Of a stretch of 48,291 nucleotides of DNA, positions 490 to 48,291 are shown in pieces (position 1 is the first letter of the stretch; every line of letters begins with the position of its first letter). Below the pieces are notes generated by a model. It searched no databases. It worked only from the letters and a program-made list of their open reading frames with translations, and was not told where the DNA came from. Made by a program: the position numbers and the translations under genes. Source of the DNA: Psammoneis japonica (taxonomy: Eukaryota); the NCBI GenBank assembly GCA_008632985.1, contig QPGO01000071.1, positions 124,001 through 172,291 of the forward strand, given 5' to 3'.

Positions 490-3400
490 CATGTACCATG
501 TACGACACATGCTCCACTGACTAGAGCCAGGCAGCAGAGCACTTGCTGCTTGTGCTGGCACAGGAGCACAGGGCCCATTACAACCCTGTGCCACCTTAGC
601 TACTCTGCTGGCAGCTTCTATATAAAGAGCTGCTCTCTCATGAGAGTCAAGAGAGCTGGCGCCAGACTGCAGCAAAGCCTCTCTGCACAGCCATGTGCGC
701 TCATCTCAGGGCTCTCTGCTCTTGCTGGCACAACAGCTCATTCCCAAATGAGGTCATGAAGTTGCAATGAGTGAGTAGATTCAAAAATGTCACATCAGAA
801 ATGACAAACTCCATGCTGGTGTGTGCCACACAGCACAACACAAAAAAAGAGCTCCTTGGTCCTCGAGCACAGCACTCACCCCCCCCCCCCCCCCCGGCCA
901 AGACAAATGCACAAAGGGCACATCATCACATTGCGCCAACTTGTCCTTGGTGTCCTGCTTCTTCCACAACTTCATCTGTGCCCCCCCTTGTGTGAGCAGA
1001 CTGGCGGGCTGCGGCACAGATTTTCTGTTTTTGCCGCCACAAACAAGCGTCCTTCATGCTCTTTTTTGCACCACTGTCCAATTGTGCACAGCAGCCAGAG
1101 TCATGTGCAAGGGTCAAGTGCAGTGTGCTTTCATCCCAGGTGCAAAAACAATGCACAATCTGTGCAGATGTCAGATGCCATGTCTGTCCTTCTTCTGTTG
1201 TGCCATGCATTTTGTGCGAGCAATCATGGCTGCTGGCTTTCTCCCCAATTTTTTTGTTTTGCTTCTTTTCTCAGGTTTGTTTCTTGTTTTGTGAGGTGCT
1301 GCCAGCTGTCACTCTCATTGCTTGGATCTGATGTCAATGCTGCATCAAGCCAAATGCCAAGCACTGATCATCATCATCTGACATTGGAGCACATGCTTTC
1401 AGACTGTTCACATGACTTGTTCATTTTGTTGCCACCATTGCAATGTGGCTCACTTTTTTTCATGCACAAAAACACCTTTGTTGCTTCCCATCCATCCATG
1501 CTGCAAAAAGCATTTCAGCATGAGTGCAAGTGTGAGCTGTTTTGGTTGGCACAGCAAAGCCAATCACAGAGAGAGCTCAAGATTCTGGCAACTAAGTTGA
1601 TGAGGAAACGGGTGCAGATGATGAAATGGAGGCAAAGCCCTCACAACACCTTTCACAATTCAGCATTGGTGCCATCATGCAGTGGGAAAACATTGATGCT
1701 CCATGCCGCTGCAACAAAGCCATGTGTCTGCTTGTCCTGGATTGCAGGAAGGGACCCAAGCGATTCTCATCTTGATGAGTTCTTTGCTTTGACTCCATTT
1801 GATCCTTCTGCAGAAGATGCCCGCAATGAAATCTTGTCTTGCATTGCTTGGGAAAGAGGTGACAGAGAGCTGCAGAGGTTTGTTTGATTTAAGGAAAATG
1901 AAGCTGACTTTGAGGAGGTTGGCTTGGCAGGTGGCTGACAAGAAGCCAACACAATCAAGCAGTGCTTCTTGTGGATGAATCAAATGTGGCCCCATGCAAC
2001 ATGGCACATTGAAAAGACATGAGTGCTCTCCTTGACAACAACTTCATGGCTGGGGTGGGGGGTGGGCTGCACATTGATTGGCTCTGCAATTGGCTGTCCT
2101 CCCAGAATGCATCAGAGGTTGCAGCTCTGACAAAGCTTTGCAGACTCCACCTTTGCTGCAGAGTGGGGACAAGGTTGCCTTGCACCCACTGTTGCACAAT
2201 GAGTCAAAGCTTTTCCAAATGCACACAACCTGTTTAGAACCCAATCCTGTGCAAGTGAGTGCCATGATGTTGGGAGAAAGCTGTCATTTGCATGGCCCCT
2301 TTTTGTGCTTGCTCAAGGTGCCATCATCGGAAAAATGTTGCTGGCTCCATGCAACTTTGGAGAGTTCAGATGTTGATGAACCAAAGGCTTTTAAAGCAGC
2401 CTTCCTGCTTGCTGTCCTTGTGCGCTTGCTTTCTGGGCAGCAACATCCACCATGTGCACCTTTTCATCCTGAGATGAAAGATCTGGAGACAGCTTTTGTT
2501 CATCCACTTGGATGTCGCACATCTCAGAAAAGGCCACAACTCCAGCTGACATTGATGCAGATGTCACAGACTGGTTTTCTGGGGAGCCCAAGGTTGTGCC
2601 ATTTCTGATGCACAGCTTCTTCCTTCTCCACAGGGAAAGAGAAAGATGACAAGCAGTTTTTGGCCACAAGTGCAAGCAAGGAGTGGTCACCTCATTGACG
2701 ATGCATGGCCACAAGTTCTGCTCTCATTGTGTGTTGAAGCAGGTGTCACAAGTGCCATGTGCAAGAAGATTGCAACCACATTGGGGGACAAGAACATTGT
2801 GGCTGGAGCTTGCTGGGTCAATCCAACCAAAGCAATGTTTTGGGAGTGTCTGCGTTGGAGGCATTGCCTCAAGGTCCTTGTGTGAGACATTGGTGCAAGC
2901 CAAGAAAGGGCCTAAAAAAAAGCTCGGCAGTCGCTGTGATGTGATTTGATTCAGTGTCACTGTTCTACGATCACACAAGAAAGTTGATTCTGACTTTCAT
3001 GCCTTCACTGGTTGTCATTTCATTCTCTTGATTGTTGTGACTGTGGGTTCTTGTCAGAAGCTGCGGTTCTCACAGGATGCAATTCGTGACTTGAACGGTT
3101 GCTTTTTCATTCTCTTCATGAACTGTTGTGCATTCATTGTGACTGCTTCACGAAAGTGTTGGTCAATGAATGTGCTTGCAATTCTCTCCAGCACAACCAA
3201 CAATTTCAATGATTGCAAGAACAGATGGGGCACGATGCGTCGTAAAAAGATGCACCGAAAGTGGCTTGCAGCATTGCCTGGATTATTCCTTGTTGCTCCG
3301 CTGGATATGATGTCTAAAACAAGCATGAAAACGCCACTGCTGCAGGGACTCAACCCTCTTAGCAGCTCTATCCTCTACCATGTGTGAACTTCTAGAGAGC
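490..3400 (+). pseudogene. Degenerate TpA/CpG-depleted repeat or pseudogene remnant (boundaries approximate; family unassigned)
   Basis: TA is nearly absent and TG/CA strongly in excess. Broken plus-strand frames translate to Tyr-free, Cys/His-rich text with TGA stops. Poly-C tract at about 878-895. Confidence 0.55.
568..662 (+). repeat. Diverged direct repeat, copy 1 (copy 2 at about 3343-3434)
   Basis: AGAGCTGCTCTCTCATGAGAGTCAAGAGAGCTGGCGC here versus AGAGCTGTTCTCTCATGAGGAGTCGAGAGAGACTGGAGC near 3396-3434. Both have upstream CAGGG..CAACCCT..CTTAGC blocks. Confidence 0.55.
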
Positions 3401-3644
3401 TGTTCTCTCATGAGGAGTCGAGAGAGACTGGAGCACCGGTGCAATGGCTCATTTTTCTGTAAACAGCTAGCGTGAAGCCGTGAAGCCCCGCCAAAGGCCC
3501 GACGCGTAGGGATGATTGAGCATATTCGAGATTGTCGCATAAGAAATGAGAAACTCTACGCACAACAGAACAAAAAGATATTATAGACCTTGCGGACGAG
3601 AACTAACTCTTCAGTTACATTTAGATAACTTAAACATAAACGCA

Positions 3645-6600
3645 TCATGCCAACTTGTCCTTAATTCCCTGCTTCTTCCACAACACAGCGTACAGTCCGT
3701 CTTGTTCAAGCAGACTCGAATGCGATCCAGATTCTTTGACACCGCCGCCATCAAGCACCGCAATTGTGTCGCACTTTTGCACCGTTGTCAAACGGTGTGC
3801 AACAACCAGAGTCGTGCGAGGGTGCGATGCCTGCATTTCATCCAGGGCTGCCTGAACCACTGTCTCGGATTTGGGATCAAGAGCGGAGGTGGCCTCGTCC
3901 AAAACGAGAATTGAAGGGTTCTTAATGATGGCACGAGCAATGGCAATGCGTTGCTTTTGGCCACCGGACAGCAAGGAGCCTCCTGCACCAATGTCGGTCT
4001 CGTAGCCATCTGACAGTTCCTGAATGAAAGAATGCGCGTTTGCAGCCTTGGTGGCTTCCTCGATTTCTGCTTGAGTTGCATCAGGTTTGCCCAAAAGAAT
4101 GTTTTCGCGCACAGTTCCTGCAAACAATACGGGCTGTTGCCCAACATATCCAATGTTCCCACGCAGCCAGTGAACGTTCAGATCCATAACGTTGTTGTCG
4201 TCAACCGCAACTTGTCCAGACGAGACGTCATAGAATCGCAGCAAAAGCTGTAATGCTGTACTCTTCCCACAACCAGATTTACCAACAAACTAGTTTGAAT
4301 AAAAGAAACAAACGAGTGCATTCCAGTATGCAAATAACAAGGAAAGCACCAGCAACAGAAGCATGTGAGTTTCGTTGCAGCGTCCTCAGCAAACAAAATT
4401 GTCCTTAAAGCTACTTGAGCGACACGACACTTACCCCTACAGATTTTTGGGGAGGAATAGAGAGATTGAAGCCGTCGCGATCTGCCGCAGGATAGAAAAT
4501 AGGATGTTCTGGGCGTGTTGGATAACTAAACCCAATAGATTTGAAGTTGACAGAACCATCAAGCTTGGACGGCCTTGATCCGTCCTCCGATAGCGGATCA
4601 ATGCTATCATACGGCTCATCGACCACAGCAAACATACGAGCAGCTGCTGTTAGTCCCTTATGGCGAGAATTGAAGTCTGCGTTTCCCTGTGAAAGTGGAT
4701 GTATGGACCAGCAAGAAAACAGTGAAGTTGACACCAACATGTGCATCTTGACTGGCGGTTTTACTCACCTGTGCAACTGTAAGCGCGGCAAACATTACAG
4801 CAAGGAGACTAACAAAAAAGTCGGTAAAATCAACTTTCTGCGACATCATTAGCTCAAGACCCGCGTAGAACAGGATTGCAAACGTTGTGTACGTTGCAAA
4901 CGAGCTGAAACCAAAAACAAAGCCCGCGATCATGCCCTCTTTCACTTTATTTTTGGATAGTGGCTCCAATGCCTTCGCGTAGTCATTCGCTAAATCTTCT
5001 TGGAGATTATATGCCTGAACCAAACTAATTTCACGAAGTCCCTGCTCTAAAATCGTCGACGACGTTACTCCCTCCTCTACGTATCGAGCCCGCCTCGTGC
5101 ATCTGGTCTCGACAAATGAAGCAAACAGGATAAAGGGTACACACGCAATTGCAATCAGCCCGATTTGCCACGAGTACAACATGGCAATTACAACACCAGT
5201 GATCATTGCAGAAATGACCTGAATTTGGTAGCCAAGTTGCCAACCCGTGATCATTGAGACTGCTTCAGCATCATCCTCCAGTCGAGCAGTGAGTTCGCCT
5301 GTTGAATGCTCCGGATAGTCAAACCATCCCATTGAGTGTCGGACAATCTTTCCGAATACAAAAACTCTCATTCGCCTTGTCAAACGGAAGCCAGAGACTG
5401 ACAAACCACCAGCCAGAGCAAGGTTTCCTAACAACGCTGCGCCGCCCAAAATGAAGAAATAAAGGGAGAGAGTCCTATTTTCCCTTCTCATATCGTCCGG
5501 TTGGAGAGTAAAGAAATTCGCTGTGATCATTGCGTATAAGATACCTTCGGCGGGTTTCAATGCCCCAGTGACAATGGCCCCTGAAACTCCCATAATCACA
5601 TACTTGCGCTCGGGCTTGTTGTAGGAGAGAAGACGAGACATGCTTGCCTTTTCCTCTTCAATTATGGTGGCGTCCCCTTCTTCTTCTGACTGGGGTTTCA
5701 CAACAGAAATACCAGCTTCAATGTCCTGAAGGTCCCCAGAGGGTTCCAAACTCGTTTCGACACAAGTCCCCGTGTTTCCTGCTTTCTCCACAGCATTTGC
5801 TTCTGTGGAATCGGCTGCAGAGTTAATGCCGATCCCTTGGGCATCGCATAGCATAGAATAGATTCCACCCTTGTTGAAGAGCTCTTCGTGAGTTCCAATT
5901 TCTGCAATACCCCCATGAGCAATAACCGCAATCTCATCACTATCGATGATGGTCGATAACCTGTGTGCCACGGTCACGGTCGTGAGCTTCATAGTCTTGC
6001 GAATGTTAGCGAGGGCCTCTTGAACATATTTCTCGCTTTGGTTGTCCAGTGCACTTGTAGCTTCATCGAGCAACAGAATTGCTGGGTTACCAACAAGGGC
6101 TCGCGCAATGGCAATCCTCTGGATCTGCCCGCCGCTCAATTGGATCGATGCGCCACTATACATGGTATTGTAGCCATCAGGGAGCTCTCGGATGAACTCG
6201 TCTGCGCACGCAGCCCTGGCGGCGGCATATACTTGTTCGTCTGAAGGTGGCTTGTCCCCAACAGCCATACCTGCCGCAATATTGTCTCTGATTGTTCCGA
6301 TCAAAAGAGAAGGCTCCTGTGGTACATAGCCGATTCTGGAACGCCACCATTTCAGGTTAAGGTCGGGAAGGGGCACGCCGTCTACCAGGATGGTACCGTG
6401 GTTAGGATCATAGAAGCGAAGGAGAAGCTTCGTAATCGAAGATTTGCCGCTCCCACTCGGTCCAGTCAACGCAACGGAAGATCCTGCCTTGATCATCAAA
6501 TTCAAATTGGAAAAGACAGGGTCGAAGGGACGGGTCGGGTATGCAAAAGTAACGTTCTGAAATTGAATCGACCCTTCAAACTGGTCAAGTCTATCGCCTT

Positions 6601-7996
6601 CATCCGATGATGCATCGATGTCGGGCTTACGCTTGATCGTATCAAACACGTCGACAGCCGCCTGTCGCCCAAGGTTTATGGCCTGGATACCAGGAGCCAT
6701 CATGGTGAAAAATTGACAGGCGAGAATGACCCCGTAAATGCACCTGAAAGACAGACAAGATAGTTGCCATGACATGAGATTCAATTTTCTCCAACACATA
6801 AAGGACCAGTCCGGAAAATCAGTTACTACTTACACCAAGACTTCTCCACCGCTGATACCACAGTATTGAAACATGCAGTAGAATGGATTCGGGTAAGAGT
6901 TCTCGACGTCACCAGTTTCTGCCACCTGATATGTTCCATAGATAAACGAAACAACGTAAGCGGTGTAAAACAAAAACCCGGTCAAGCCTGACGAAACGCC
7001 GGTCAAAAATCCTCCTCGAATGGACCACTTCTGTCCATCCACTACAGTTTCTTCATAGCGTTCGACAGCCCAAGACTCGAGCGAAAGCGAGGCTACTGTC
7101 TTGATTCCCGAGATCACTTCGGTTGCAAACGCTCCAGCGTAGGCAAAATTCTTGAGCGCCTCACCACTGCTCTGACGAACGAAGATGCTCACAATGATGA
7201 TGACAAGCCCCACCACGGGTAAAAACGCCATGACAATCAGAGCCAGTGACCAGTCCAGTCCTACTGCTACTACCAGGCAAAAAAAGGAAGAGAGAAGGTT
7301 CGCGTAAGTGTCCGCCATGGTCCGCCCGATGGCCACGTTGATCTTGTTCAATGCGTTGGCCGCCAGAGTCGGTAGTTCTTGAGGATCTCCACGTAAATCA
7401 AACCACTTGGCCTCTTGTGCAAAAGCGCATCTCACAAAGGCTTCACGGATCCGCAGCGACTGCTTTTCGCCGGTGAGCGTCCACAGCGCAACATACATGG
7501 CCCCAGCAAAGAGTGATACAACACCCAAAATGATGAAGGAGTAGACCAAATCCATGAGCTTATCTTGCAATATTTCTACTGCACGATCTGCTCCGACTTC
7601 GTTGATGAGCTTGCCAAGATCATTGAAGACGTTGAGACTCTGCGCAAGTAGCATCAGCCAAACCGGCATTGCAAGACCAGAGATGGTGGCAGATAGCAAA
7701 CCAAAACACATCTGCAAGCGCTCTCGCTTGGTCGAAAACGACAAGAGAGACAACATAGAGACACGCGGCGGGGTCGTTTCCACCTCAGCTTCTGGAGTTT
7801 CTTCTTGAAGAACCGTCGAAGCGGCTCGATCGTTCGCCCATTCAATTACATAACAGCTGGCAGCTTTCGATGTGAGCAACGGATTCGCCGCACGAATCTC
7901 ATCCAACTCATGATTCTCCGTTAGCGTCGTCTCGTGCACAGAAGGCCGCCTGCGGCTGACGCCCATCGACAGCTTGTCCAGGGTGCCGCTCGTCAT
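3645..7996 (-). CDS. Full-size ABC transporter, subfamily B (MDR/P-glycoprotein-like), TMD-NBD-TMD-NBD, about 1344 aa; exons 7996-6834, 6743-4769, 4686-4435, 4289-3645
   Basis: Walker A GPSGSGKS and GKSGCGKS, signatures LSGGQIQRIAIARA and LSGGQKQRIAIARA, Walker B ILLLDEATSALD and ILVLDEATSALD, H-loop VAHRL twice, and two TM bundles. GT-AG introns at 6744-6833 (GTAAGT..TTTCAG), 4687-4768 (GTGAGT..CACAG) and 4290-4434 (GTAAGT..CTAG) splice to one 4035-nt open frame. Confidence 0.95.
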
Positions 7997-8329
7997 GGTA
8001 GGCTACGGCCTTATTCTTTCGAGTGGCGCACGTTGGTAGCTGTAAAGGTACGGTACAGTAGAATGTAGAAGGTGGAAGGATTAACAATGAAGAGAATGAA
8101 TGATGAATGAAGCTTTCGCGGTGTCCGACAAGAGGAGGGACATCATTGGCTTCCACCTTCCACTTTTGACGATGCTTTCTGATTGGTCGAATGCTTCAGC
8201 AGCGAACCCCGATGTGTCATTCCAGTCGCGCTTGGGGCAATTGGAACAGATTGAAAACAGACTGCATTCAAAATAATTGAGAAATCCCTTGCTTGGCGGG
8301 CAGACGCGAGTGTCGTTCGTGAGTTGGTG

Positions 8330-9620
8330 CATGACCTGAAGACATGTCAGGGAAGGCTGAGAAAGCGAAAACACAAGAACGGAAAAATCAAAAGGAAGCC
8401 AGGGAACATGGAGCCCACATGAAAAGCTTGGAGGAGGCAATGGCAAGCCTGAAGGAGCATGTGAACAAGGAGATGCTGAGCATGAGATGAGAACAAGCGG
8501 CCACCACACAACGTGCCAGCAACGGCATGGGGGGCAAAAACCTGTCCCGGGAATCCAAGCCACACAACATGAGTGGCAGCCCCTCTTGGGCTTGTTGTGA
8601 ACACATGGCGCACAATGCTGATTTCCAACCTGAGCAGTTGTGAGAACAAGCAACTGGCATGCATTGTGTGGGCGCACGTTGCTCACACAAGCAACGGACA
8701 CTGTGCTGGCAGCACGTGTCCTCACGCTCACAAAGAGAGCATGGTGATGCACACATGAGCATATCCCCCAATTCCAACTGACTCAACCCAACAGCCTTGT
8801 TGCACAATGTTTTTCCAGACACACTGTCAAGCAACAAAAAGGCTGCAGTGCACAGCTGAAGTTGTTGTTGCTTCCAATGAGTGGGAGAGTTGAGTGCCAT
8901 GTGCGCAGCATGCAACAGAGTGCAAAGAAGTTTTGTGCACAGAGTGATGTGCAGAAAACCTGGGTTCACAACGTGTGTTTTCAGAAAGAGCATTTTGGCA
9001 GACAGTGGGAGAGAAGCTCATCATGTCGTGAACGCACACCAGCTTCTGCCAATGCAAAACTGGGTTTTGAACGTGCCAGTTTCCTGCAGGAATTTCATGG
9101 AAGCAAGCCTCTAAAACAAGTGCTCAAAAAGAAACACACATGGCAAGGAAAAAGTGGGAGAGAACAAGTTGTGCAGGAAAGTTTGTGAAACAGCTTCCTT
9201 CAACAAGGTGGTGTGAAGGAAAGACAAAGGAGGCACAGAGGAGAGCAGAATGACCAGCAATCATGCACAACATGAGCTGTGATTTGATGCAGCCATCACT
9301 GCAAACTTCAGTGACAGTCAAGAAGTGCAAAAGGGCACCAAGTCTGGAGGACCTCAAAAACAATGTTGTGGTGTGCAGATGACACAAAACTGCCACACAA
9401 ATCTTGAGTGCCATGTTTGACCTCATGGCTGCATTTCACACAGTTGCTTCATGAACCAACTCTATGATTGGATGTTGAAATGTCCCACATGCATGGTGAA
9501 TGAGGGGTCAGTGTGGACCAGGGTTAACATTCTGATGGCAAAATGTTTGGCGCGCAAGATCACATGACATCATGATGCTCAAGACTTCTTGCTCGTTGCC
9601 TTTGTGTGACACTGTCTCGT
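8330..9620. pseudogene. Degenerate TpA-depleted repeat remnant, family unassigned (boundaries approximate)
   Basis: Abrupt switch to TA-poor, TG/CA-rich sequence between normal intergenic segments. No recognisable domain. Confidence 0.5.
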
Positions 9621-12035: not shown

Positions 12036-12066
<31 letters not shown>

Positions 12067-20670: not shown

Positions 20671-20689
20671 AATGGCAATGTCATGCAAC

Positions 20690-24443: not shown

Positions 24444-24469
24444 GGCGAATGCACTGCTTTTGCACTCCT

Positions 24470-38055: not shown

Positions 38056-38089
38056 CTCCCCAGTTTGCTTGAGGAGCCACAGAAACAGA

Positions 38090-41000
38090 TTCGACTTCGG
38101 ATGGAATGAAGTTCCAGAACATGAGGGGGCGGAGAAGGTCCCAGATTTGGGAGCAACCCCAATGCTTGCTGAGAATGTCAGCAGGGTTGCGGGAGCCTTC
38201 GATGAAGTGGAACTCAAGGTAACCAGAGGCAATTGCCTCACGCACATGGTGGAACGACAGTGCGGTGTGTCGCTTGTGTAACTTGGAGTGCGGGATGGTG
38301 GCACTGTCTACAACCGACTTGTTGTCACCGAACATGTAACTGACATTACGGATCGGGACGCCAAGGCAGCGCAGGGTGATGCGCAGGTCGACAATCTGCT
38401 CAACACAATTCCTTGCGGCAACAAATTCAGATCCGCAGGTTGCAGTCTCCACGGTGGCTTGTTTCTTGGAGAACCAATCAGCCGGGAATTTGTTGAGGAA
38501 GTGGAGCATTCCCATGACAGAGCGTCCGGTGAGCATGCAATGGTGCAAGTTTGCATCGACGCAGTGGGTGGTGGTGACGAACTTGCCAAGGGGCGGTGGA
38601 GCATCCTTCGGGATCATCTCTTCTGCTTCACCATGCACGGAATGCATCCATTCACAGGCTGGAGCAGGGAGATCCGAACAGTCGGGCTCTTCCGTGCGAA
38701 CGCGGAGAGCACCGTGTCGCATCTTGGAGAGGTGCCCACAGACGCGTTTGGCACGATCCAAGTGGCCTTGACGGGGCGCAGCTCGGAAGCTAGAGAGTGA
38801 CATGACAGCCGTGGTAATGTCAATTCGACCAAGGGACACTGCCCATTGGAGTGAACCAACAAGAGACTGGAACTTGTGAATGCCATCGGGTCCCAGCAGT
38901 TCGGAAGTGTCCAGTTCGGGGTGGTCACCCTTCTCCAGAGGTGACAGGGCGTTGGTGGCAGGTTTCTCCCCAAACAGTCGGGCGCAGCTGTCGACCATGC
39001 GCTCGATGTACTTGCGCGGAGACAGGCACAAGGTTCCGTTGGGGTCCCGGGAAAAGTCGCAACCCAGATGGAACTCAATGGGTCCCGCACCCTTGAGCTT
39101 GAACTTGTGCTTTTCCGTGAGAGTGTCGACGAAAGATTGAGGGTCCTTCATGGCAATGGCGAGGTCATCCACATAAACGGCAATGCATTCACAGTGGTCG
39201 CCGTTCCTGCGCATCCAAATGTCGGGTTCGGCGCGGCAGGGGAAGAAGCCTTCAGCTCGCAGGCAGTCAGCGAAGCGCTCGTGCCAGCGGAGACCGGAGC
39301 TGCGCAGTCCATGCAGTGCCTTGTGGATGACAAGGATGTGTCCTTCGAGTTTGCCAAATTCGGGTCCAGCTACAATGTAAAGCTTCTCCTTGGTGGCAGC
39401 TTCAAGGTGGGCATTGCCAATGTCGGTGGCCCATGTCTCCAGCTCGTTGAGTTCGGCCAGGAAAATCATCAGCCGAAGGCCACGGAGGGAGACCACTCCG
39501 GAGCAGACACTGTCGATGGGTGCGTCCGTGAGGTGCCCGTCGGCTACGAGTCGTGCCTTGTGGCGACCGTCGTGTTTCACGTCGCACACCAGGTGCACTC
39601 GGATCTTCTTGTGTCCCGCAGGAGGAGTGGAAGACTTGAAGGGCCCGCAGTCATGGAAGACTTCGTATTCGTTGAGTTGGTCCATCTCGAGATTAGTTGC
39701 GTCTCCCCACTTGCGGTTGCCGTTGCGTTCGTCTAGTGACATGGCGTGTTTGTAGTTCCGGGGAACTTCGCACCCGCACTTGTGGCGAGGTGCAGTGCGG
39801 AAGGAGCGAAGCTTGGCTTGGTTGGCCATGCGAAACAGCTTCTTTTGGCGCCTCGCGACAGTGCGGAACCGCTTCCAGCCATCCGTGTCGAGGAGTCCGT
39901 TCTCTCGTGCATAGATGGCACAGGTGACGGGGTCGTCCTTGGCGATGATGGCAAGAGGCTCGGACGTGATCTCCCCACTTTCCCATTCAAGCATGATGTT
40001 GTAGCTTGAGCCTTTCCAGGTTGGGTCGTGAGGCTTCAGAGGTCCTTCGTGTGACACGATGCGTCGAAATTTCCAAATGGTGGTGTCTTCGTCTTCTTGC
40101 TCAATGTGATTCATGATGTCATTGCAGGCAAGGACTTCCTCGCATTCGTCATTGTTGACAGAGCAGACGAACCCAGTGAGCTCGGGATTGCCGTTCACTT
40201 TCCATTCATGGTCTTCGACGGCCTTGACGATGCGAGCTCTGTGGCGTTGTCCGTCCTCTTGTGGCTGCATGAGGAAGGTACGTCCAATGATGTCTTGCGG
40301 ATCGAAAACTGGCATCTTGGGTGTCCTGATCTCCCCATCAGGAGAATCGACGGGGTTGTCGTCATGGCGAGATTTGATGATGGGTTCAGGTGGCTCCCCA
40401 TCAGGAGGATCAAGACGCAGGTTTCGAACGGCAGGATCGGGGGTAGCAGAGCGAACGTTGGACCGGCAGAGGATCTTCTGAGTCTCGTCAGATAGGATCT
40501 TGAAGGTCATCTGGTGGCCGACGTGCTCAGCAATGCCAACGAAGCGTCCACGCAACTCACGGGATTCGGACGGCCAATCGGAGTCATCGAGGTGGAAGCA
40601 CACTGGTTCCCACCAGTGAAAGCGAAGCAATGGGCTGATGTCCGGGGTGGATCCAGTGAGAGTCTCGAGGGGCGTGCGCCAGTGGAGACGTGGGACGCTG
40701 TGTGGTTGAGTGTGAAGCACACGTGCATGAGCGCCAGCAGCCATGTGTGGGCGGGCGAACCAAAACGGTCCATGACAGTGTTCGCCATGCGCTTCACGGT
40801 CTGGTGTCGACGCTCGGCAAAGTTTTGGTGTTGCTGGTGAGGCTCACTTTGCCAGCTGGAGATGAAGAGGGCGCGCAGGATCCCGAGCACTTTGTTGCTG
40901 ATCTCAACTTGAGCACGGTCGCTAATGAGTTTGGATGGGGCACCACGTTCACGGATCTGATCCTCGAGTGTGTTGACAAACTCTTTGTCCGTCTTAGTGC

Positions 41001-43644
41001 CGTAGACGTCAGTGACGGTAGACTCGGTGCCAACAAACAGTTGGGCGCTGGTGCAACCAGAGTCGACGGCCGGGGTGTCGGCATGAACGGTGTCAGTGGC
41101 GATGGGCTCATTGCGGCGGTGTACATTAAGGGCGGGGTTGGGTGATTTGCAGGCCTTGCGAAGGTGTGTGCCGGCGGGCATGCGGGCGTACTGCGTGGTG
41201 CAGTCAAAAGTACGACGGACCGCATCGGCAGGCAGGAAGCCAAAGTGAGGCCGAAGAGACTCGAAGGGGGGGTCCTTGGGCTGTGCAGTGCGCTCCGGAG
41301 GTGGAACGTCATCGCCCTTGGGGTCAATCGCATGCAGATGACACTCGTAGAACACGTCGTCGTTCGGAATGAGGTGATCATCGAGGGCGGACGCGTGATC
41401 GGCAGACAAGGAAGCGGACAAGATGGTCTCGTTGACAACGACACGGTGACGGCAGTTGCCGCATTCGTCAAATGGGTTGGCAGTGGGATCGTCCTGCAGG
41501 TCAGAGATCGCATCGTACCACTGGTCGTCGTCAGTGACAGAGTGATCGAGGACGGAAGGGTCCCATGTGTCATCACCGGTGAGGATGACATGGGGCAGGG
41601 TGTCCCATTCGGTGTCAGTGCAAGGTCGCATGGCAACATAAGGCAGGCCAGCCTTGATGTCAATGGGGATGACATAGCCATCAGGAGTGGCAACACGTTG
41701 CAAGCCGTTGGGCACCTTGACAGAGCGATCGTTGACATCCTGTTTGCACCATTCGAGCTGGCCGCAGGAATGGATGGTCTTGCCCTTTCCCGTGCATGCG
41801 CACTGATGGAGGATGGCGATGACGGGACCACGCTGGGTCTCAATGACGCCAACTGATGATCGTCAATGCCCTGAACGTCGACTTGGCGAGAGGTGCGTGC
41901 GATGACGCGAACGTCGTCGCCAGCAATGCCGCCGTTGGCCCCACGATCGACTAGAGCGCCAGTGCGTGTGGAGCGATGAGCAGAGGCAGAGCAAATGACA
42001 TTGTGGTTGTTGACGCGGCAGCAAGTGCGGCCGTTAAGTTCCATGTCATCTGCAGAAGCTGGCGGGGTAGAGGAAGCGGCGGATGGCCCCGGTCGACTGG
42101 CATTGGAGGCTTGGTTAGGAGACAACAGACGTTGCAGATCACCGGGTGGCAGTGGCTTGCGCTTGGTGAGGTGCGCCAGGATGGGATCATCCGAAGTGGC
42201 GTCCACATGTGTGGCGGAGTCACCACAGTCAGCAGGAGTCGTGTTGGACAAGTTGACATCACCGTCACTCCCAAGGTGTTGGTCGTGAAGGTTGGCCGTA
42301 ACAGACTCATGGCAGTCACTGGCTCGCGGGTTGCGGGGAGGCGGACGAGATTGCTCAAGGATGATCGCCTTGGAGGAATCAGGCAACGAATCCCAGAGCC
42401 GTTGGTGGTCGGGAGGGAGACGTCTCCATTGGACACCGGTGAGGCTGGGACCGCGGGTGCAGGCAGCATTGGCTTGAAGGACGTCAACGTCGCTGTCAAT
42501 GTCGTAGAACACATTGTCGGACGGTTCCTCGGAGCAGACGTCGTGTGCGCACATGGCGCGTCGGGGAGCTCGAGGTGTCGTCTTGGGTTGAAACGTGCTG
42601 TCGTGCTGAGCTGCCGCGGAGAGGAGCAAGCCACAGCATTGATCGCATGTGAGGCTCTTGTCACTCTGCGTGCGATGCTGATCAGCTTGGTTCTTGACAG
42701 CACGGAGTTCCTCGACAGGGTGCACGGCATTCTCGAGCATGACGCGCTTCTGTCCTTCAGAGAAGTGGTCACTGGCGGGGATGAGTGCCTCGCACTTGCG
42801 CAACTGATCTTGCCAATGAAGGATGAACCCGTGGGTCGGACCTTTCCAAGTGCCATCACCAAGACGTGCGGTGGTGAGGTGCGTGAGCAGGGTGGAGGAC
42901 TCGACAGATGCACGGGTGGAGGCAAGCGCGCACTCAGACAAGGAGCGGCAGACGGTCTGTGCGTCAGAAGACCCCACATTTTCGCGAATGAGAGCCTTGC
43001 CCTTGTCGGTGAGAAGGATGCGTTCGAAGACGGCGAACATGTGCTTTTGCTGTTCAGCAAAGAGCAGTTTGTCTTCGGGGCTGGTCGGTTTGTACGACGA
43101 GTCTAGAATGCACTCGACGTCTTGGGCACGGGCTTGTGCCACAAGTGAGGTGTGCCAAGTGTGCCACTGCTTGTCGGATTTGAGAGCCGTGAAAGCGGTG
43201 GGATCACGCTTGATGCCTCGCTTGAAGTCTCGCACCGGGTCGCGTGCCTTGGTGGGGTTGGTGACATGTGGAGGTGCAAGGGGTGAGCTGCCGATGGACA
43301 CAGAGGACATGCAGTCCGGGCTGAGGCGGCAGGCAAGGAACTCGTCATGCGTGAACAAAGAGGAGTTGTTGGCAACGTCAAGACCTTTGTGTGCTTTGAC
43401 AATGTGCAGGCCAACTGGTGCTGCTGACATGTTCTTGTAACCACGGGGCAAAGGGATTGCATTGGTGCCGTTGTCGTGCTCAAGCGAGTCGATTTGGGAC
43501 GGCATGAACGTGAACAGTTCCTGATGCGAGTCCGTGCCGTCTTGGGCCAAAGCCAAACGAAGAGGACTCCCAGCACCTTGGGCAAGCACGGTTCCAACAA
43601 CATGCTCGAAACCATCGGTTTGTTGCTGACGAGTGAGAACCATG
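38090..43644 (-). pseudogene. Inner Copia gag-pol polyprotein, frameshifted at about 41850 and about 40700 and extensively Tyr>Cys/His mutated
   Basis: gag FKRGIKRD; protease LVDRGANGG; integrase ATDTVHADTP, ISDRAQVE, SEPHQQHQNFAER; RT KARLVADGH, TDIGNAHL, KALHGLRSSG, YVDD; RNase H VDANLHH, GSEFVAA, GDNKSVV, NPADILSKHW. Confidence 0.9.
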
Positions 43645-44565
43645 GCAGACAAAAGTGGTGTCAGGACAATCAATTCTGGTTGGGAAGCGAAGGCAGACTC
43701 GAAACTTGGGTGAGAACAGACTTGACTTGAAACAGACTTGACTTGAAATCTTGAACTGTCTTAAAATCAGAAGTCGCCGGGCTTTGTTGTCCCGTTCGTT
43801 GTCAAGTGCTAAACTTCCTGTCCGGTCCGTAGAGTTGTGCCGGCACGTCCGAACCCGCAGCTGGCGGCGCTTTGGGTTGCTTGCGAGCGGAGCAGCGGGT
43901 TGTAAACCCCTGCAGGTGAGCTGACCAGAGGTGGACAAGACCCCCAAACCATTCTCATTTTATGTCGGTTGGATTTCCCGATCAGGCTGGCCAGTTGACG
44001 CAGGCGTCAGGCGCTGTGGACGAACGAACAAACGCGGGAAAGCACCCTCGCCCCAACGCAGGCTGCAATCACGGCTGCTTGCTCTCACAGTCGTCCTCGT
44101 GGACCCAGTGGAACTGCAGAGCACCAGCAGTCCGGGGTAGATCAGGTGCAATGGACTCGGTGTGCTTGTAGAGTGGCAGCAAAACCGCAGTCTGAAGAGT
44201 GGGTACAGGTTCTTGGCCGTGAAGACATGCACACATGCACATGTCTTCAGCGACGAAGATCCTTGAATATGTGGGGTTCTTGACCGTCAACCGATGAACA
44301 GGTATGTCAAGGGATGAGGATCAAGGACAGACTTGGATGTGACCGTTGAATGTATGTCTTCAGCGATCAAAGGCAGTATAATCAATCCAGGTGTCCAGCG
44401 GTAAGGAGACTTGACGGTGACGTTAACTTCCTGCCGATGCCCTGGTGTTGAATGCGCGTAGACTTGCCGATGTATGTAGAACATATACGGAGGTCCACGT
44501 GGAATTGAAATAGCGTCGTTGGTAAATCAACGACGACGATGGCGGTTGCTCAATGGGTTGACAAT

Positions 44566-44582
44566 GAGCAAGACTGTTAATC
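44566..44582 (-). promoter_or_regulatory. Primer-binding site of the inner Copia, complementary to a tRNA-Asn(GUU)-like anticodon arm
   Basis: Immediately internal to the 5' LTR the minus strand reads GATTAACAGTC, the complement of GACTGTTAATC. There is no canonical TGG start. Confidence 0.5.
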
Positions 44583-44858
44583 TGATAGAAATTGAAGGCA
44601 AATGGCAAGAATTCAAACAATGACTCCTTACTGCTGTCTAAACAGCAGATGAGTCTCCGCTCAGAGACCGTCACAGGAGCTGAAAGACGTGCAAGTCGGC
44701 ACAATCGGGCCACTGTCATTATTCTTGTGAGCCTTGTGGCTCGAAAGCAAACTACATCGCGCGTGAACGCGCGGAACTAAAGCACACAAAACTGTGCGCG
44801 GTAAACTAAACAGCGCGCGATGCTTCGCGCGCATCCAAATCCTGTTCAAATCCTGTCA
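44583..44858 (-). repeat. 5' LTR of the inner Copia
   Basis: Second LTR copy, TGATAG...CTGTCA on the plus strand, followed by TSD CATCT. Confidence 0.95.
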
Positions 44859-44863
44859 CATCT

Positions 44864-47800
44864 CAAGAAAGTCGACGGCAAGGTCGTGTGCCTTTTTGAT
44901 CATCTTCACGCCTTCACTGTCAAAGACCTTGAGAAGGAACATGAGACCCGTGTGGCGGCCACAGGTGACGAAGGCTACGATCAGCATGAAATCGATGACA
45001 TCGGCTTGTCACAACTCATCGTCAAGTCGCGCATCACCGAAACCTTCCGTGAAAAGATTGAAACCAAGTTTGATCACTTGAAGAAACTGCAAGGATCTTC
45101 CGGGGTCTGTCTCATTTATGATGGCTCTGGACACCTGCAACGCCAGTGCTCTGGTTGACGTCAAGGCCGCCAAGGAAAAGTTGAACGACTTAACTCTGGA
45201 TGCCCACCCTGGCGAGGACTGCACCGAGCTTGCAACCGAAGCTCTGCGCCTGCTCAAGATCATGCAGACGGACCATGCGTCACCAGTTGAAACTGGGTCC
45301 ACCATTTTATCTGAGGTGTCAAAGACATCGTCCGAGTTTTTCAATCGTCAAGTTTTTGCCAAGCTCGACTCCGTCAAGCGCTTGGAGTGCAAATGTCGCT
45401 TGCGTGACCCGGCAGAAGTCCCCAAGGATGCCGGCTGTGCGGATCTTGGACCTGTTGGCCTCATTGGCTGGATCACCAAGACCCATGGCGAACTCATTAG
45501 CGATGAAGATTGGCCTGCCTTAGCAGCCAAGCTCCCGGAATCCAACCTCACCAAGGACAACTCGGAAAAGCATTGCTGCGGCTGTGGCAAGGTTGGGTGC
45601 ACCAAACGCACGTGTCCTGCCTGCAAGGAGCAATGCAAGAAGGACAAAAAGGGCATGGCGGACAAGTCCAAGGATGACCCTCCGGATGTCCGGAAGACTG
45701 ACCCTTCCAAGAAACCACCCAAGCCGGCCTGGCATTTCGTTCACAAAGGTGCCACTGTCACCGACGAGAAAGGCACGACCTGGCACTGGTGCGACAAGTG
45801 TGTGAACAAGGAAACGGGCAAGAAGGGCATGTGTCAAGGCCACTCCTCCGCTCAACACACCGGGAAACCGTCTGTCAAAACCGAAACCACCGCTGCGGCA
45901 AATTTGTCTGCTGTGTCGGACCCCTCTTCGGGCATTCCTTTTGGTCCTCCCGAGCAGACGACGTCTCCGCCTACAGACGAACCCTCTGACCCTCACGAGC
46001 TGGTTTATTGCGGCATGTGGTGTGCACCTGTGGACGACTCTTTGAGTTCGACTCCAGTGACTACGACCGTCACGTTCACTCCTGCTCCATCGGCCGAGAG
46101 GGAGACTGCCGTGGCCAAACCCGCTCCCATCTTGGTTGAAACGGTTGACCCCGAAGACGCTGACGATTGCTCCGAGCACTCTGACGCTCACTCCTCTTTT
46201 GACTCCCTGCCGTCAGCTATCGAGCTATTTCCGGCCCATGCTGTGCATGAGATTCAAAATCCGGACGTGTTTTATGACACGATCGCAACTCACGTGGAAG
46301 GTCTGTCCGACGACGTGTTAGACGATCTCGTTTCCGGGGCAAGCATCCTGCCTTTCGAAGACAGCTACGAGCACTTACCTCCAAGCACCCAGTGTCGCGG
46401 TTTCGAATTTTACGATCCCGAACCCCAAGATGTTGATTGTGGCGTCGAGGAGGCAACGCCGAGCTCTCGTCTTGAGCTCTTCTGGAACTTCTTGAAGCTC
46501 CGAGTTTTCTGGCTGTTTGCCATGTTCTGGGAAACGGTGCCACACATTTGCTGTGCGCCGATTCCTGTCTTACCTCGTCGTATGCGCCGTAAGGCATTCA
46601 TCCCAACCATTCACGGTTTCCCCTCTACCTGGATGGTGCTGACTGGAGCTGTCATGGTCTGGGCGTCTGTTTTCAACGGTCAGCTTCCCACGTATCCATT
46701 CTCCAAGGTCCCCTCTCGCTTCTCCAAAGCTGGCTCTCAGGTCTGCTCGATCATTGAAGAACTGGACGATAAGACAGTGTTAGATCCGGGCAGTTTGGTG
46801 GAATGCAACAAGATCAAGGCGCGACAAGTGCTTGCCGAATTTGTGGAGCGCGATCCGGACCATCATCTGAGCAAGAAATTCACGCAGCTCTGGGAGAACG
46901 ATGCATGCTCTTCCCCAGGCCGCTGTGTCCCTCCAGCTCTAGAAGACCCCGAGTCCTACTTCGACACCTATGATTCAGAGGAAGCCCTCGGCCCGCTCCC
47001 GACCGAGCCGAGCCACCACTTTGATGCGGTTGAGGAGCTCTCTCCGGACTATTTTCGTTTCGACGAGCTGTCCACCAAGTTTGGTTTCGTGGACACCACT
47101 CCATGGCAAGACCCTGTGAAGCTTCTCCAGGCAGCTACTGACGGAACCGAAGCCTGTCCCACTCATACCTCTATGCAGGTGTTGACAGGCCAACGTTCTT
47201 CAGCACAACTCGCCGCCGACCCGCAAGCTTTGCTGAGCCTAGCACATGAGCGCCACACCGTCATGTGCGACACTGGCGCATCCTTGGCCATTGCTTACGA
47301 TGAAAACGACTTTGTCGGACCTCTGACAATCCCTGATGGCCCATTGAAGCTTGGGGGTCTAGCAAATGGCTTAACCATCGCCGGCATCGGACCCGTCTCC
47401 TGGGTTTTCCATGACAAGGACGGCTCTGAGCTCGTCGTCAAGACGATGGCGTGCCATGTGCCTCAGGCCGGACAACGTCTTCTATCCCCACAACGCCTCT
47501 ACAGCAAGGAACATGGCGTGACAGGAAAATGTGAGGGAGACGAGGACTCATTTCGAGTGCACATTGATGGCGCCGGTTCGCTCAAGGTCGCGCACGCGTC
47601 AAATCACTTGCCGGTTGCGTCTGTGACCAACGGGGTGGCACCCGCTCCTCAAGTCAATCTGTCTGTGTTGCACGAGGACAACCAGAACCTCACCACCGGT
47701 CAGAAGCTCCTTCAAGAATGGCACTTCAGGTTTGGTCACCTGAACATGCCACGCATCCAAGGCCTGCTTCGGGCCGAACCTTTTCTCCGACCCAAATTCA

Positions 47801-48291
47801 AGCATGCTTCGCGTTGCGACATTCCGCGGTGCGAGGTGTGCGAACATGCCAAAGGACATCGCCGAACCCTCAAGTCTGCCAAACATGCGGCTACTCCAGA
47901 GCGTGAGGGTGCTCTTCGAGCCGAGCATCTACGTCCAGGCCAAGCCGTCAGCGTGGATCACTTCGAATCCCGTCTCCTCGGCCGAACCTACGACTCCTGC
48001 GGGAAGGCCTCGTCCCAGCAATACAAAGGAGGCTGCATTTTTGTGGATCATGCCTCCGGTTACCCACATGTTGAACACCAACTTGGTTTCTCTGCTGTGG
48101 AAACGGTGCGAGCGAAGCAAGCGTTTGAAAAGCACGCGATGGACCACGGCGTCATCATCCAAGAATTTCTTGCCGATTCTGGCGCTTTCAAGGCCAATGC
48201 TTTTGTGCAACACATGCAACAGCACGAACAACGTCTGCGTTTTTGCGGAACCAATGCCCACCATCAGAACGGCGTCGCAGAACGTGGCATT
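44864..48291 (+). mobile_element. Outer Copia, continued: gag (Zn-knuckle-like), protease, GAG-pre-integrase and integrase core, running off the window; frameshifted
   Basis: CCGCGKVGCTKRTC and WHWCDKC...H...H in gag; CDTGAS protease motif at about 47265; LLQEWHFRFGHLN...CEVC; PGQAVSVDHFES, GGCIFVDHASG, LADSG and FCGTNAHHQNGVAERG. Confidence 0.9.

What the first reader, a model, noticed from the sequence alone, without database searches (positions are those of the whole stretch)
490..48291. Repeat-targeted TpA>TpG/CpA (A-to-G) hypermutation: a candidate 'reverse-RIP' genome-defence system
Seen: all repeat-derived blocks (about 490-3400, 8330-9620, 11720-29880, 32040-34100 and most of 37200-48291) are strongly TpA-depleted; I find no TA in 13321-13920, whereas the ABCB, MIC60 and secreted-protein genes and intergenic DNA keep plentiful TA. 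From established family motifs, conserved Tyr (TAY) in TE proteins now reads Cys (TGY) or His (CAY): Copia VHLVCDVKHDG, SVCSGVV, GNAHLEA, KALHGL and TATCGSEF (normally Y), Sola DGCAKQH, and LINE HCDN and CTSCCD. The change is strand-symmetric and affects a LINE, a DNA transposon and two LTR elements alike. Inference: it acts on chromosomal repeat DNA, not on RNA or cDNA intermediates. Fungal RIP creates TpA (CpA>TpA) and 5mC decay destroys CpG, so neither explains TpA loss. Candidate mechanisms are a DNA adenine deaminase (TadA/ADAT-like enzymes favour TA contexts) or mutagenic processing of a modified A or T at TpA in heterochromatin. I do not know of a description of this process, but I cannot search the literature.
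Basis: partly seen in the sequence, partly recalled or inferred. Interest (0 to 1): 0.97.

Follow-up and report, generated by a model that had tools for sequence, protein, structure and literature searches.

The report
TA-erasing hypermutation of diatom repeats
In this diatom-like alga, silent repeated DNA has had nearly every TA step rewritten to TG or CA, a direction of repeat mutation that no described process explains and that may mark a new way of disabling mobile DNA.

Summary
In four old blocks (about 24 kb) TA is 103 against 1558 expected, while neighbouring genes keep 426 of 804. Only four dinucleotides differ from genes: TA -31 and CG -33 per kb, CA +33 and TG +31.

The direction is TA to TG/CA. 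Tyr columns conserved in relatives read Cys or His in a Copia (16 of 26) and in a terminal-inverted-repeat (TIR) transposon (11 of 13).

It is genetic, not a base-calling artefact. Independent k-mer contigs of a DNA run at about 60x give the same letters in long single-path contigs.

It acts on chromosomal DNA. The two LTRs of one Copia differ at 16 bases, all transitions in pyrimidine-purine steps. Five are CA/TG doubles that CpG decay cannot give.

It has a sequence rule: ATAC and ATAT are erased, TTAA is spared.

None of 80 related Copia loci from metagenomes shows it, and nine literature searches found no description.

The enzyme, the targeting rule and any defence role are not shown. The LINE and Sola labels are unverified. 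One Copia leader is spared, and the many transposon copies mostly share the TA-free state.

The parts
630..3240 (.). TA- and CpG-depleted block 1. Single-copy and of unknown origin.
   Evidence: TA 7 of 176 expected, CG 28 of 150. One X1 DNA contig of 8564 nt spans 908-9429 with 12 differences. No RNA contig lies on it. ORF 805-1884 has 0 Tyr, 23 Cys and 26 His, and no homologue.
8280..9680 (.). TA- and CpG-depleted block 2, between the ABCB gene and the next transcribed stretch.
   Evidence: TA 4 of 88, CG 28 of 83. There are 14 differences from the X1 contig, all transitions: 7 are CG against TG/CA, 1 is TA against CA (8762, the only ATAT left in the old blocks), and 1 is a CA/TG double.
11730..29700 (.). 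Largest TA-depleted block. It contains the TIR element.
   Evidence: TA 85 of 1171, CG 431 of 1072. X1 contigs cover 12086-16582 with 0 differences.
16556..25390 (+). 8.8-kb element bounded by terminal inverted repeats. High copy number.
   Evidence: Arms 16556-16583 and 25363-25390 are 28 nt and 93% complementary. The left arm starts where the loose ends of X1 contigs begin (16552/16557). Summed depth rises from about 60 to 2000-4500.
18367..19974 (+). 536-aa open frame of the TIR element, with no Tyr.
   Evidence: Y 0, C 34, H 34. It has 33 relatives at 29-39% identity carrying 1.7-6.1% Tyr. In 13 columns where at least 60% of relatives have Tyr, the window reads C 6, H 5, Q 1, L 1, Y 0. Other conserved columns are kept in 120 of 182 cases, Fisher P 2e-6.
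32100..34030 (.). TA- and CpG-depleted block 4.
   Evidence: TA 7 of 123, CG 39 of 116.
37780..44858 (-). Complete Copia element 1, with LTRs and a 5-bp target duplication. It is nested in Copia 2.
   Evidence: LTRs 37780-38056 and 44583-44859 are 94% identical. CATCT lies directly before the left LTR and directly after the right one. RVT_2 scores E 7.9e-27.
38006..40843 (-). Copia 1 pol frame used for the Tyr test.
   Evidence: In 26 columns with at least 80% Tyr in 60 relatives (60 of the 120 listed were aligned), the window reads Y 6, C 10, H 6, F 2, R 1, W 1. Other conserved columns are kept in 401 of 441 cases, Fisher P 9e-15.
37780..38056 (-). 3' LTR of Copia 1.
   Evidence: There are 16 differing bases against the other LTR, at 11 sites. 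All are transitions inside pyrimidine-purine steps, and none lies elsewhere.
44583..44859 (-). 5' LTR of Copia 1.
   Evidence: Same comparison: 5 CA/TG doubles, 3 TA against TG/CA, 3 CG against TG/CA. Shared between the LTRs: 18 CG and 6 TA.
43751..44582 (-). Leader of Copia 1, which has escaped the TA loss.
   Evidence: 23 TA remain, including the most mutable contexts (ATAC 5, ATAT 2).
45082..48291 (+). Copia 2. It is older than Copia 1, is interrupted by it, and runs off the window.
   Evidence: The 1070-aa open frame matches gag_pre-integrs at E 8.6e-5, below Pfam's cut-off. It holds 40 TA, 12.5 per kb. CG is 227 of 251 over 45000-48291.
3645..8002 (-). ABCB transporter gene, a control with normal TA.
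   Evidence: ABC_tran and ABC_membrane domains are present. RNA-like contigs of X2 skip introns 4290-4434 and 6742-6831. TA is 170 of 315 over 3400-8270.
34668..36676 (-). Mitofilin/MIC60 gene, a control.
   Evidence: PF09731 scores E 3.7e-27. TA is 87 of 184 over 34100-37200.

Best explanation
Shown. The silent repeat DNA of this diatom-like genome has undergone a real, heritable, DNA-level hypermutation. It turns 5'-TA-3' into TG or CA by a transition on one strand or the other. The process:
- touches no dinucleotide other than the four pyrimidine-purine steps;
- is far faster than background mutation;
- stops sharply at block edges;
- follows a palindromic flank rule. Purine-TA-pyrimidine (ATAC, ATAT, GTAC) is erased and TTAA is immune.

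Ordinary CpG decay, of the 5mC type, runs beside it in the older blocks but not in the younger Copia elements.

Inferred. I think the most likely chemistry is conversion of the adenine of TA into a base that pairs like guanine, most simply deamination to hypoxanthine. It would act on either strand of chromosomal DNA, be favoured by a pyrimidine 3' of the A, and be aimed at silenced or repeated DNA by a chromatin, small-RNA or homology cue. Replication then fixes A to G. The effect is to wreck Tyr codons, and so mobile-element proteins, while creating no stop codons.
For: Depletion and balance. In the old blocks TA is 4.3 per kb against 35.0 in genes, CG 22.0 against 55.0, CA 110.5 against 77.3 and TG 102.0 against 70.6. 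The other 12 dinucleotides stay within about 7 per kb, and the sum of the four is 238.8 against 237.9.

Direction. Conserved Tyr reads Cys or His in 16 of 26 Copia columns and 11 of 13 TIR-element columns, while other conserved residues are kept in 401/441 and 120/182 cases.

Both strands. The outcomes are C 10 against H 6, and C 6 against H 5. Sense TG against CA is 175 against 170 in the TIR ORF.

Not an artefact. X1 DNA k-mer contigs at word depth about 60 reproduce the TA-free sequence as long single paths: 908-9429 with 12 differences and 12086-16582 with none. A base that read differently on the two strands could not give such paths.

Acts in place.
- The LTR pair has 16 differing bases, all transitions in pyrimidine-purine steps and 0 elsewhere in 277 positions.
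- Five are CA/TG doubles. With 18 shared CG and 3 single CG changes, only about 0.05 doubles are expected from CpG.
- Read as former TA, the doubles sit in the most mutable contexts, while the 6 shared TA are mostly CTAA.
- Allelic differences: TA/TG at 622 and TA/CA at 8762.

Context rule. Survival relative to gene density is TTAA 0.82, CTAG 0.30, CTAA 0.26, CTAC 0.11, GTAA 0.10, GTAC 0.08, ATAA 0.07, ATAG 0.05, ATAT 0.02 and ATAC 0 of 57. The products TTGA and TCAA are the least enriched.

Lineage-specific. 80 related Copia loci have TA o/e of 0.42-1.06 and GC of 0.40-0.54. The window's Copia has about 0.15 and 0.58.

Silent. No X2 RNA-like contig lies on the depleted blocks.
Against: - No enzyme could be sought, because no genome is held.
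- In the high-copy TIR element, contigs of depth 490-860 are themselves TA-poor. G>A plus C>T differences total only 31 over the 20 kb laid. So most copies share the TA-free state, and much of the loss predates their amplification.
- The 830-bp leader of Copia 1 keeps 23 TA, including ATAC and ATAT, although it lies between a mutated LTR and a mutated coding region.
- The older Copia 2 keeps more TA (12.5 per kb) than the younger nested Copia 1 (6.9 per kb).
- The library type of X1 is not on record, and it comes from the same sample as the assembly may.
- Only three depleted stretches are proven mobile elements.
- The 3' pyrimidine preference does not match what I recall for ADAR (3' G) and matches TadA (UAC) only loosely. 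Both are recalled, not tested.
- All of this rests on one 48-kb window.
Confidence: 0.6

Rival explanations
1. Same phenomenon, different chemistry: over-correction by a T:G mismatch glycosylase. A methyl-DNA-bound enzyme of the MBD4/TDG kind, present to undo 5mC deamination, would also turn replication T:G mispairs at TpA into C:G before strand-directed mismatch repair can act. That would drive TA to CA/TG only in methylated repeats. This is a eukaryotic counterpart of the word bias that very-short-patch repair causes in E. coli.
For: - The depletion is confined to blocks that are silent, and the old ones are CpG-decayed, so probably methylated.
- The young Copia elements have lost TA but kept CpG (394 of 430 expected; Arg kept in 32 of 33 columns). 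That is what efficient T:G to C:G repair would give.
- One conserved Tyr reads Arg (CGT), which needs both bases to change.
- Bypassing mismatch repair could explain a rate roughly 100 times background.
- From recall, not tested: TDG's second-best context after CpG is T:G followed by A.
Against: - No enzyme was tested.
- Mammals have MBD4 and TDG without any such TA loss (recalled).
- CG o/e in the Copia is 0.90, not raised.
- The immunity of TTAA is not predicted.
- The methylation state was not measured.
Confidence: 0.15
2. Same phenomenon, with thymine as the target. A TET/JBP-type oxygenase would mark heterochromatin by oxidising T at TpA to 5-hydroxymethyl- or 5-formyl-uracil. These bases mispair with G and would give T to C.
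For: - The symmetry of the rule (purine 5' of T equals pyrimidine 3' of A) cannot tell A from T as the target.
- The depletion is limited to sharply bounded blocks.
- From recall: dinoflagellate hydroxymethyluracil and kinetoplastid base J favour TpA.
Against: - From recall, older base-composition surveys did not report such a base in diatoms.
- No gene could be sought.
- A mark that destroys its own site is an odd design.
Confidence: 0.1
3. The change happened before insertion. The mobile-element lineages would be edited as RNA or cDNA (ADAR/ADAT-like A-to-I), or have drifted to a TA-free state while still spreading. On this reading the blocks are inherited composition, not mutation in place.
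For: - Most of the roughly 35-75 copy-equivalents of the TIR element share the TA-free state.
- The Copia 1 leader is unmutated while the coding part is mutated, as a recombinant of edited and unedited templates would be.
- The extent differs from element to element rather than with age.
- An X2 RNA-like contig shows A>G at two UA sites (10341, 10420) where the DNA contig has A.
Against: - A TIR-bounded DNA transposon has no RNA intermediate.
- Both Tyr-to-Cys and Tyr-to-His occur.
- The LTRs, identical at insertion, now differ only by transitions in pyrimidine-purine steps, including 5 CA/TG doubles.
- There are allelic TA/TG and TA/CA differences.
- Single-copy blocks with no recognisable element are the most depleted.
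- Proteins with 0 of 13 conserved Tyr left are unlikely to be active.
Confidence: 0.08
4. Sequencing or assembly artefact: a repeat-specific modified base is miscalled, or a polishing error was made.
For: The library type of X1 is not on record, all three runs are from one sample and one study, and X1 may have been used to build or polish the assembly.
Against: - K-mer contigs at depth about 60 agree through the depleted blocks as long single paths.
- The window crosses an 8.8-kb element present in tens of copies. Short reads alone would not span that, so two technologies probably agree (inference).
- The changes follow codon-level logic (Tyr to Cys/His) and a flank rule.
Confidence: 0.03

Closest known systems
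Repeat-induced point mutation (RIP) of Neurospora and other fungi
   Same: Heavy transition mutation limited to repeated or silent DNA, on both strands, with a dinucleotide preference and sharp edges. It ruins mobile-element genes. Part of an element (the Copia 1 leader) can escape, as unduplicated DNA does in RIP.
   Different: The direction is opposite. RIP makes TA from CA/TG by C to T and lowers GC. Here TA is destroyed by A:T to G:C, and GC rises to 0.58 in the Copia. A cytosine methyltransferase-like enzyme (RID, DNMT4 family) cannot do this chemistry. Unlike RIP, this process creates no stop codons. Dependence on duplication and on the sexual cycle is untested. Diatom DNMT4 enzymes of unknown function are noted in PMC9998398 (passages read).
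CpG decay by deamination of 5-methylcytosine
   Same: A context-bound transition confined to a chromatin compartment, yielding TG/CA. It is present in the old blocks (CG o/e 0.37) and in many metagenomic Copia relatives (CG o/e 0.10-0.5).
   Different: It cannot remove TA. The Copia elements lost TA while keeping CpG. Relatives with strong CpG decay keep TA at 0.42 or more.
A-to-I editing by ADAR or ADAT/TadA-type deaminases, and APOBEC editing of retroelement cDNA
   Same: A-to-G outcome with a 5' U/T requirement, which is typical of tRNA A34 deaminases and favoured by ADAR (recalled). APOBEC offers a precedent for editing enzymes that hypermutate retroelements.
   Different: Here the change is fixed in DNA, on both strands, and also in a DNA transposon, in LTRs after insertion and in unrecognisable single-copy DNA. 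No natural enzyme that deaminates adenine in chromosomal DNA is known to me (recalled).
Word bias from very-short-patch (Vsr) repair in E. coli
   Same: A T:G to C:G directed repair that depletes TA-containing words as a side effect (recalled).
   Different: It is bacterial, tied to one methylase site, and mild. Here nearly every TA in a compartment is lost.

Membership tests
Fungal RIP | C:G to T:A transitions that create TpA and lower GC | tested here: not met
   TA is lost, not gained. Conserved Tyr (TAY) reads Cys or His. GC is 0.58 in the Copia against 0.40-0.54 in 80 relatives.
Fungal RIP | Mutation limited to duplicated sequence | tested here: inconclusive
   LTRs, the Copia coding region and a high-copy TIR element are hit, and the Copia 1 leader is spared. 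The most depleted blocks are now single-copy, and no genome is held for counting copies.
Fungal RIP | Dependence on a RID/DNMT4-type enzyme and on the premeiotic stage | not testable with these tools
   No genome or crosses are available. PMC9998398 reports DNMT4 in many diatoms with unknown function (passages read).
5mC-driven CpG decay | Loss of CG with gain of TG/CA | tested here: met
   In the old blocks CG is 22.0 per kb against 55.0. Seven of 14 allelic differences in 8280-9680 are CG against TG/CA. This accounts for about half of the TG/CA gain and none of the TA loss.
RNA-level A-to-I editing of retroelements | A-to-G on the transcribed strand only, in elements with an RNA stage | tested here: not met
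   Tyr-to-His (T to C on the sense strand) occurs in 6 and 5 columns, beside Tyr-to-Cys in 10 and 6. A TIR DNA element is affected, and the LTRs diverged after insertion.
Base-calling artefact from a modified base | Accurate reads of amplified DNA show the unmodified letter, or the two strands disagree | tested here: not met
   X1 k-mer contigs at depth about 60 agree with the window in long single paths. The library type is not on record.
Copia (Ty1/copia) LTR retrotransposon | RVT_2 reverse transcriptase, LTR pair, 5-bp target duplication | tested here: met
   RVT_2 scores E 7.9e-27. The LTRs are 277 nt and 94% identical. The motif CATCT flanks both ends.
   28-nt terminal inverted repeats are present. 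No Pfam family matches the ORF or 7 intact relatives, and no clear target duplication is seen.
   No such Pfam hit at E<=0.1 in 122 ORFs of at least 90 aa from 487-33770. Heavy mutation may hide one.

The most novel reading that the evidence does not exclude
A diatom lineage has a dedicated genome-defence pathway that works like RIP in reverse. Silenced or duplicated DNA is recognised, and an adenine-directed DNA deaminase, or an equivalent activity, rewrites TA to TG/CA on both strands. The rule is purine-TA-pyrimidine, and TTAA is spared. This erases Tyr codons and TA-rich signals without making stop codons. It would be the first natural enzyme system that edits A:T to G:C in chromosomal DNA.
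Probability: 0.3. Interest if true: 0.95.

Novelty: categorically new. Interest (0 to 1): 0.86.

Why it matters
All described repeat-directed mutation (RIP, 5mC decay, APOBEC editing) starts from cytosine. A natural process that removes TA by A:T to G:C transitions in chromosomal DNA would be a new class of mutational genome defence, or of chromatin-linked mutagenesis.

It would point to an unknown DNA-modifying or repair activity. One candidate is a natural DNA adenine deaminase, a function so far obtained only by engineering (recalled).

It would also change how repeats, pseudogenes and open reading frames should be read in such genomes. TA-free DNA has very long false open frames, and mobile-element proteins escape profile searches.

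The system is testable, because the organism has been sequenced from culture-like material and diatoms can be crossed and transformed.

Tried and rejected
- Whole genome: none is held, so there are no genome-wide profiles, family consensus sequences or proteome search.
- Earlier findings of this scan: nothing for this genome or sequence (one search was a word-count slip). The phage notes returned concern other dinucleotide biases and did not bear on this finding.
- Pfam on 27 long ORFs and on 122 ORFs of at least 90 aa from the old blocks: only ABC, Mitofilin, RVT_2 and a weak gag_pre-integrs hit. No LINE or transposase domain.
- ORF 805-1884 against 1.84 billion representatives: 0 hits.
- N-terminal Copia 1 frame and the Copia 2 frame aligned to 25 full-length relatives: only about 35-40% of conserved columns kept, so too noisy to use. 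Tyr was kept in 0/16 and 2/20 columns, with few clean Cys/His outcomes.
- Strand bias: none is consistent. Copia 1 has sense CA 502 against TG 411 (P 0.003), but Tyr outcomes of C 10 against H 6. Copia 2 and the TIR ORF are even.
- Polymerase-eta-type WA mutagenesis: rejected, because AA is not depleted (o/e 1.24 against 1.19).
- Neutral genome-wide bias: rejected, because intergenic and intronic DNA next to genes keeps TA.
- No RNA holder was listed by the run search. X2 behaves like RNA but is not on record as such.
- Literature: nine searches found no description of TA-to-TG/CA mutation of repeats.
  - PMC6604790 (passages read) reports a GC-to-AT bias and no TA effect in Phaeodactylum mutation-accumulation lines.
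  - PMC7884421 (passages read) was irrelevant.
  - Subscription journals and the organism's own genome paper, which I did not try to identify, are not covered.


Full report
**What the window is.** It is nuclear DNA of a diatom or a close relative.
- The ABCB-type transporter frame 4658-6829(-) finds its best full-length-type matches, at 44-58% identity, in diatom proteins.
- Pfam confirms ABC transporter domains at 3645-8002(-) and Mitofilin/MIC60 at 34668-35693(-). It also finds a Copia reverse transcriptase at 38003-40843(-) and a weak gag_pre-integrs match in the frame 45082-48291(+).
- No whole genome is held, so everything below rests on 48 kb plus public reads and relatives.

- Over the window TA has o/e 0.24, and TG and CA about 1.5.
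- Four old blocks (630-3240, 8280-9680, 11730-29700, 32100-34030; 23.9 kb) hold 103 TA against 1558 expected. Four gene stretches (12.2 kb) hold 426 of 804.
- Edges are sharp.
- The two Copia elements are less extreme (37 of 242 and 40 of 164) and, unlike the old blocks, keep their CpG (394 of 430 and 227 of 251).

**Only four dinucleotides are involved.** Per kb, old blocks against genes: TA 4.3 against 35.0, CG 22.0 against 55.0, CA 110.5 against 77.3, TG 102.0 against 70.6. The other twelve differ by no more than about 7 per kb. The sum of the four pyrimidine-purine steps is unchanged: 238.8, 245.3 and 237.9 per kb in old blocks, Copia and genes. That is what transitions inside this class produce. 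CG to TG/CA is ordinary 5mC-type decay. TA to TG/CA is the anomaly.

**The direction is TA to TG/CA.** I aligned the Copia pol frame with 60 of the 120 listed relatives.
- In 26 columns where at least 80% of relatives have Tyr, the window reads Cys 10, His 6 and Tyr 6, plus F 2, R 1 and W 1.
- Other equally conserved columns are kept in 401 of 441 cases (His 18/18, Trp 14/14, Arg 32/33), Fisher P 9e-15.
- The codons are TGY or CAY.
- The 536-aa frame 18367-19974(+) has no Tyr at all, with 34 Cys and 34 His. Its 33 relatives carry 1.7-6.1% Tyr. In 13 columns with at least 60% Tyr it reads Cys 6, His 5, Gln 1, Leu 1 and Tyr 0, against 120 of 182 kept elsewhere.
- Both outcomes occur, so both strands are hit.

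**What the blocks are.**
- Copia 1 is a complete element at 37780-44858(-). It has 277-nt LTRs (94% identical) and the 5-nt duplication CATCT on both sides.
- It is inserted into Copia 2, whose parts lie at 37200-37779 and 44859-48291.
- The Tyr-free frame belongs to an 8.8-kb element bounded by 28-nt terminal inverted repeats at 16556-16583 and 25363-25390.
- The left repeat begins where loose ends of DNA contigs pile up, and where summed depth jumps from about 60 to 2000-4500, roughly 35-75 copy-equivalents. It is therefore a class II element.
- The label Sola could not be tested. There is no Pfam family for this frame or for seven intact relatives.
- No LINE was found, and the remaining depleted DNA has no recognisable domain. 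ORF 805-1884 has no relative at all.

**It is not an artefact.** Three coded runs of one sample hold the stretch.
- X1 gives k-mer contigs at word depth about 60 that reproduce the depleted blocks as long single paths. One contig of 8564 nt covers 908-9429 with 12 differences, and five contigs cover 12086-16582 with none.
- A modified base that read differently from the two strands would break such contigs at every site.
- X1's library type is not on record and it is not an independent sample. That is the remaining caveat.
- X2 behaves like RNA. It skips two GT-AG introns of the ABCB gene, covers only the gene stretches, and leaves the depleted blocks without any contig.

**It acts on chromosomal DNA after insertion, and fast.**
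- The two LTRs of Copia 1, identical at integration, differ at 16 bases in 11 sites. All are transitions inside pyrimidine-purine steps, and none lies elsewhere in 277 positions.
- Three sites are TA against TG/CA, three are CG against TG/CA, and five are CA against TG.
- With 18 shared CG and three single CG changes, CA/TG doubles from CpG should number about 0.05. The five doubles are therefore former TA sites resolved independently in each LTR.
- Read as TA, they lie in the most mutable contexts (ATAG, ATAA, TTAC, CTAC, TTAT). The six TA shared by both LTRs are mostly CTAA.
- The X1 contig differs from the window by TA/TG at 622, the edge of block 1. It also differs by TA/CA at 8762, the only ATAT left in the old blocks.

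**A sequence rule.** TA survival in the old blocks, relative to gene density, is:

| Context | Survival |
|---|---|
| TTAA | 0.82 |
| CTAG | 0.30 |
| CTAA | 0.26 |
| CTAC | 0.11 |
| GTAA | 0.10 |
| GTAC | 0.08 |
| ATAA | 0.07 |
| ATAG | 0.05 |
| ATAT | 0.02 |
| ATAC | 0 of 57 (gene-stretch count) |

- The 29 surviving TTAA are spread evenly. TTGA and TCAA, the products TTAA would give, are the least enriched tetranucleotides.
- Seen from one strand, A to G is favoured by a 3' pyrimidine and disfavoured by a 3' A. Equivalently, T to C is favoured by a 5' purine.
- In the Copia, Tyr codons preceded by G went to His 4 and Cys 1, and those preceded by C went to His 2 and Cys 7, as this rule predicts (small numbers).

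**Lineage-specific.** A scan of metagenome contigs returned 80 related Copia loci.
- In the matched region TA o/e is 0.42-1.06 and GC is 0.40-0.54, even where CpG is down to 0.10.
- The window's Copia has about 0.15 and 0.58.
- One of the two search patterns required a Tyr, which biases the scan against mutated copies.
- Two of the 120 protein relatives have low Tyr (P0200 1.7%, P0228 2.3%).

**What does not fit a simple defence story.**
- Most copy-equivalents of the TIR element share the TA-free state. Contigs of depth 490-860 match the TA-free window, and G>A plus C>T differences total only 31 over the 20 kb laid. Much of the loss therefore predates their spread.
- The leader of Copia 1 (43751-44582) keeps 23 TA, including ATAC and ATAT.
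- The older Copia 2 keeps more TA than the younger Copia 1.
- These points suggest element-specific episodes, perhaps dependent on homology or on targeting by small RNA, rather than steady decay of a chromatin domain. They could not be resolved here.

**Mechanism.**
- Shown: a DNA-level, two-strand, context-bound transition at TA, confined to silent blocks.
- Inferred: I favour conversion of the A of TA to a G-pairing base (deamination).
- Rivals are over-correction of T:G mispairs by a methyl-DNA-bound glycosylase, which would also explain why the Copia keeps its CpG, and mutagenic oxidation of T.
- Polymerase-eta-type mutagenesis is rejected because AA is untouched.
- A genome-wide neutral bias is rejected because intergenic DNA next to genes keeps TA.

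**Novelty.** Nine full-text searches found no description. In Phaeodactylum mutation-accumulation lines the bias runs from GC to AT (PMC6604790, passages read). Diatom DNMT4 enzymes related to the RIP enzyme have unknown function (PMC9998398, passages read) but cannot do this chemistry. Papers outside the held library were not seen.

Noticed in passing
window 10341 and 10420: The RNA-like contig of X2 reads G at two A positions, both in 5'-TA-3', where the window and the X1 DNA contig read A. Indels lie nearby (10417-10448), so this may be the other allele. It could also be A-to-I editing at UA.
   Followed up: partly
window 43751-44582: The leader of Copia 1 keeps a normal TA density (23 TA, including the most mutable contexts), although the LTR and coding region on either side are mutated.
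   Followed up: partly
window 37200-37779 and 44859-48291: Copia 1 is nested in Copia 2. The older host element is less TA-depleted (12.5 per kb) than the younger insert (6.9 per kb).
   Followed up: partly
window 17185-17594 and 24461-24717: There are two short tandem duplications inside the TIR element, with units of 171 nt and 129 nt. The 129-nt pair differs mainly by CG/TG and CA/TG. The 171-nt copies also differ by transversions.
   Followed up: partly
window 38006-40843(-), residue 41: One invariant Tyr column reads Arg (CGT), so both bases of the TA changed. This hints that TG/CA can go on to CG.
   Followed up: no
loci L004, L015, L025, L068 and others: Many metagenomic Copia relatives are strongly CpG-depleted (o/e 0.10-0.5) with TG/CA excess but keep TA. 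5mC-type decay of these elements is therefore common in nature, and the TA loss is not.
   Followed up: partly
proteins P0200 and P0228: Two of the 120 Copia relatives have low Tyr (1.7% and 2.3%) with raised Cys. They may be partly affected copies from a related organism.
   Followed up: no
window 600-34100, all frames: TA-free DNA has only TGA as a stop, so it carries many long false open frames on both strands (61 frames of at least 150 aa in the window). This would mislead gene callers.
   Followed up: partly
window 9990-10670 and 11202-11541: These stretches are transcribed (X2 contigs) but hold no convincing open reading frame. They may be untranslated regions or non-coding RNA.
   Followed up: no
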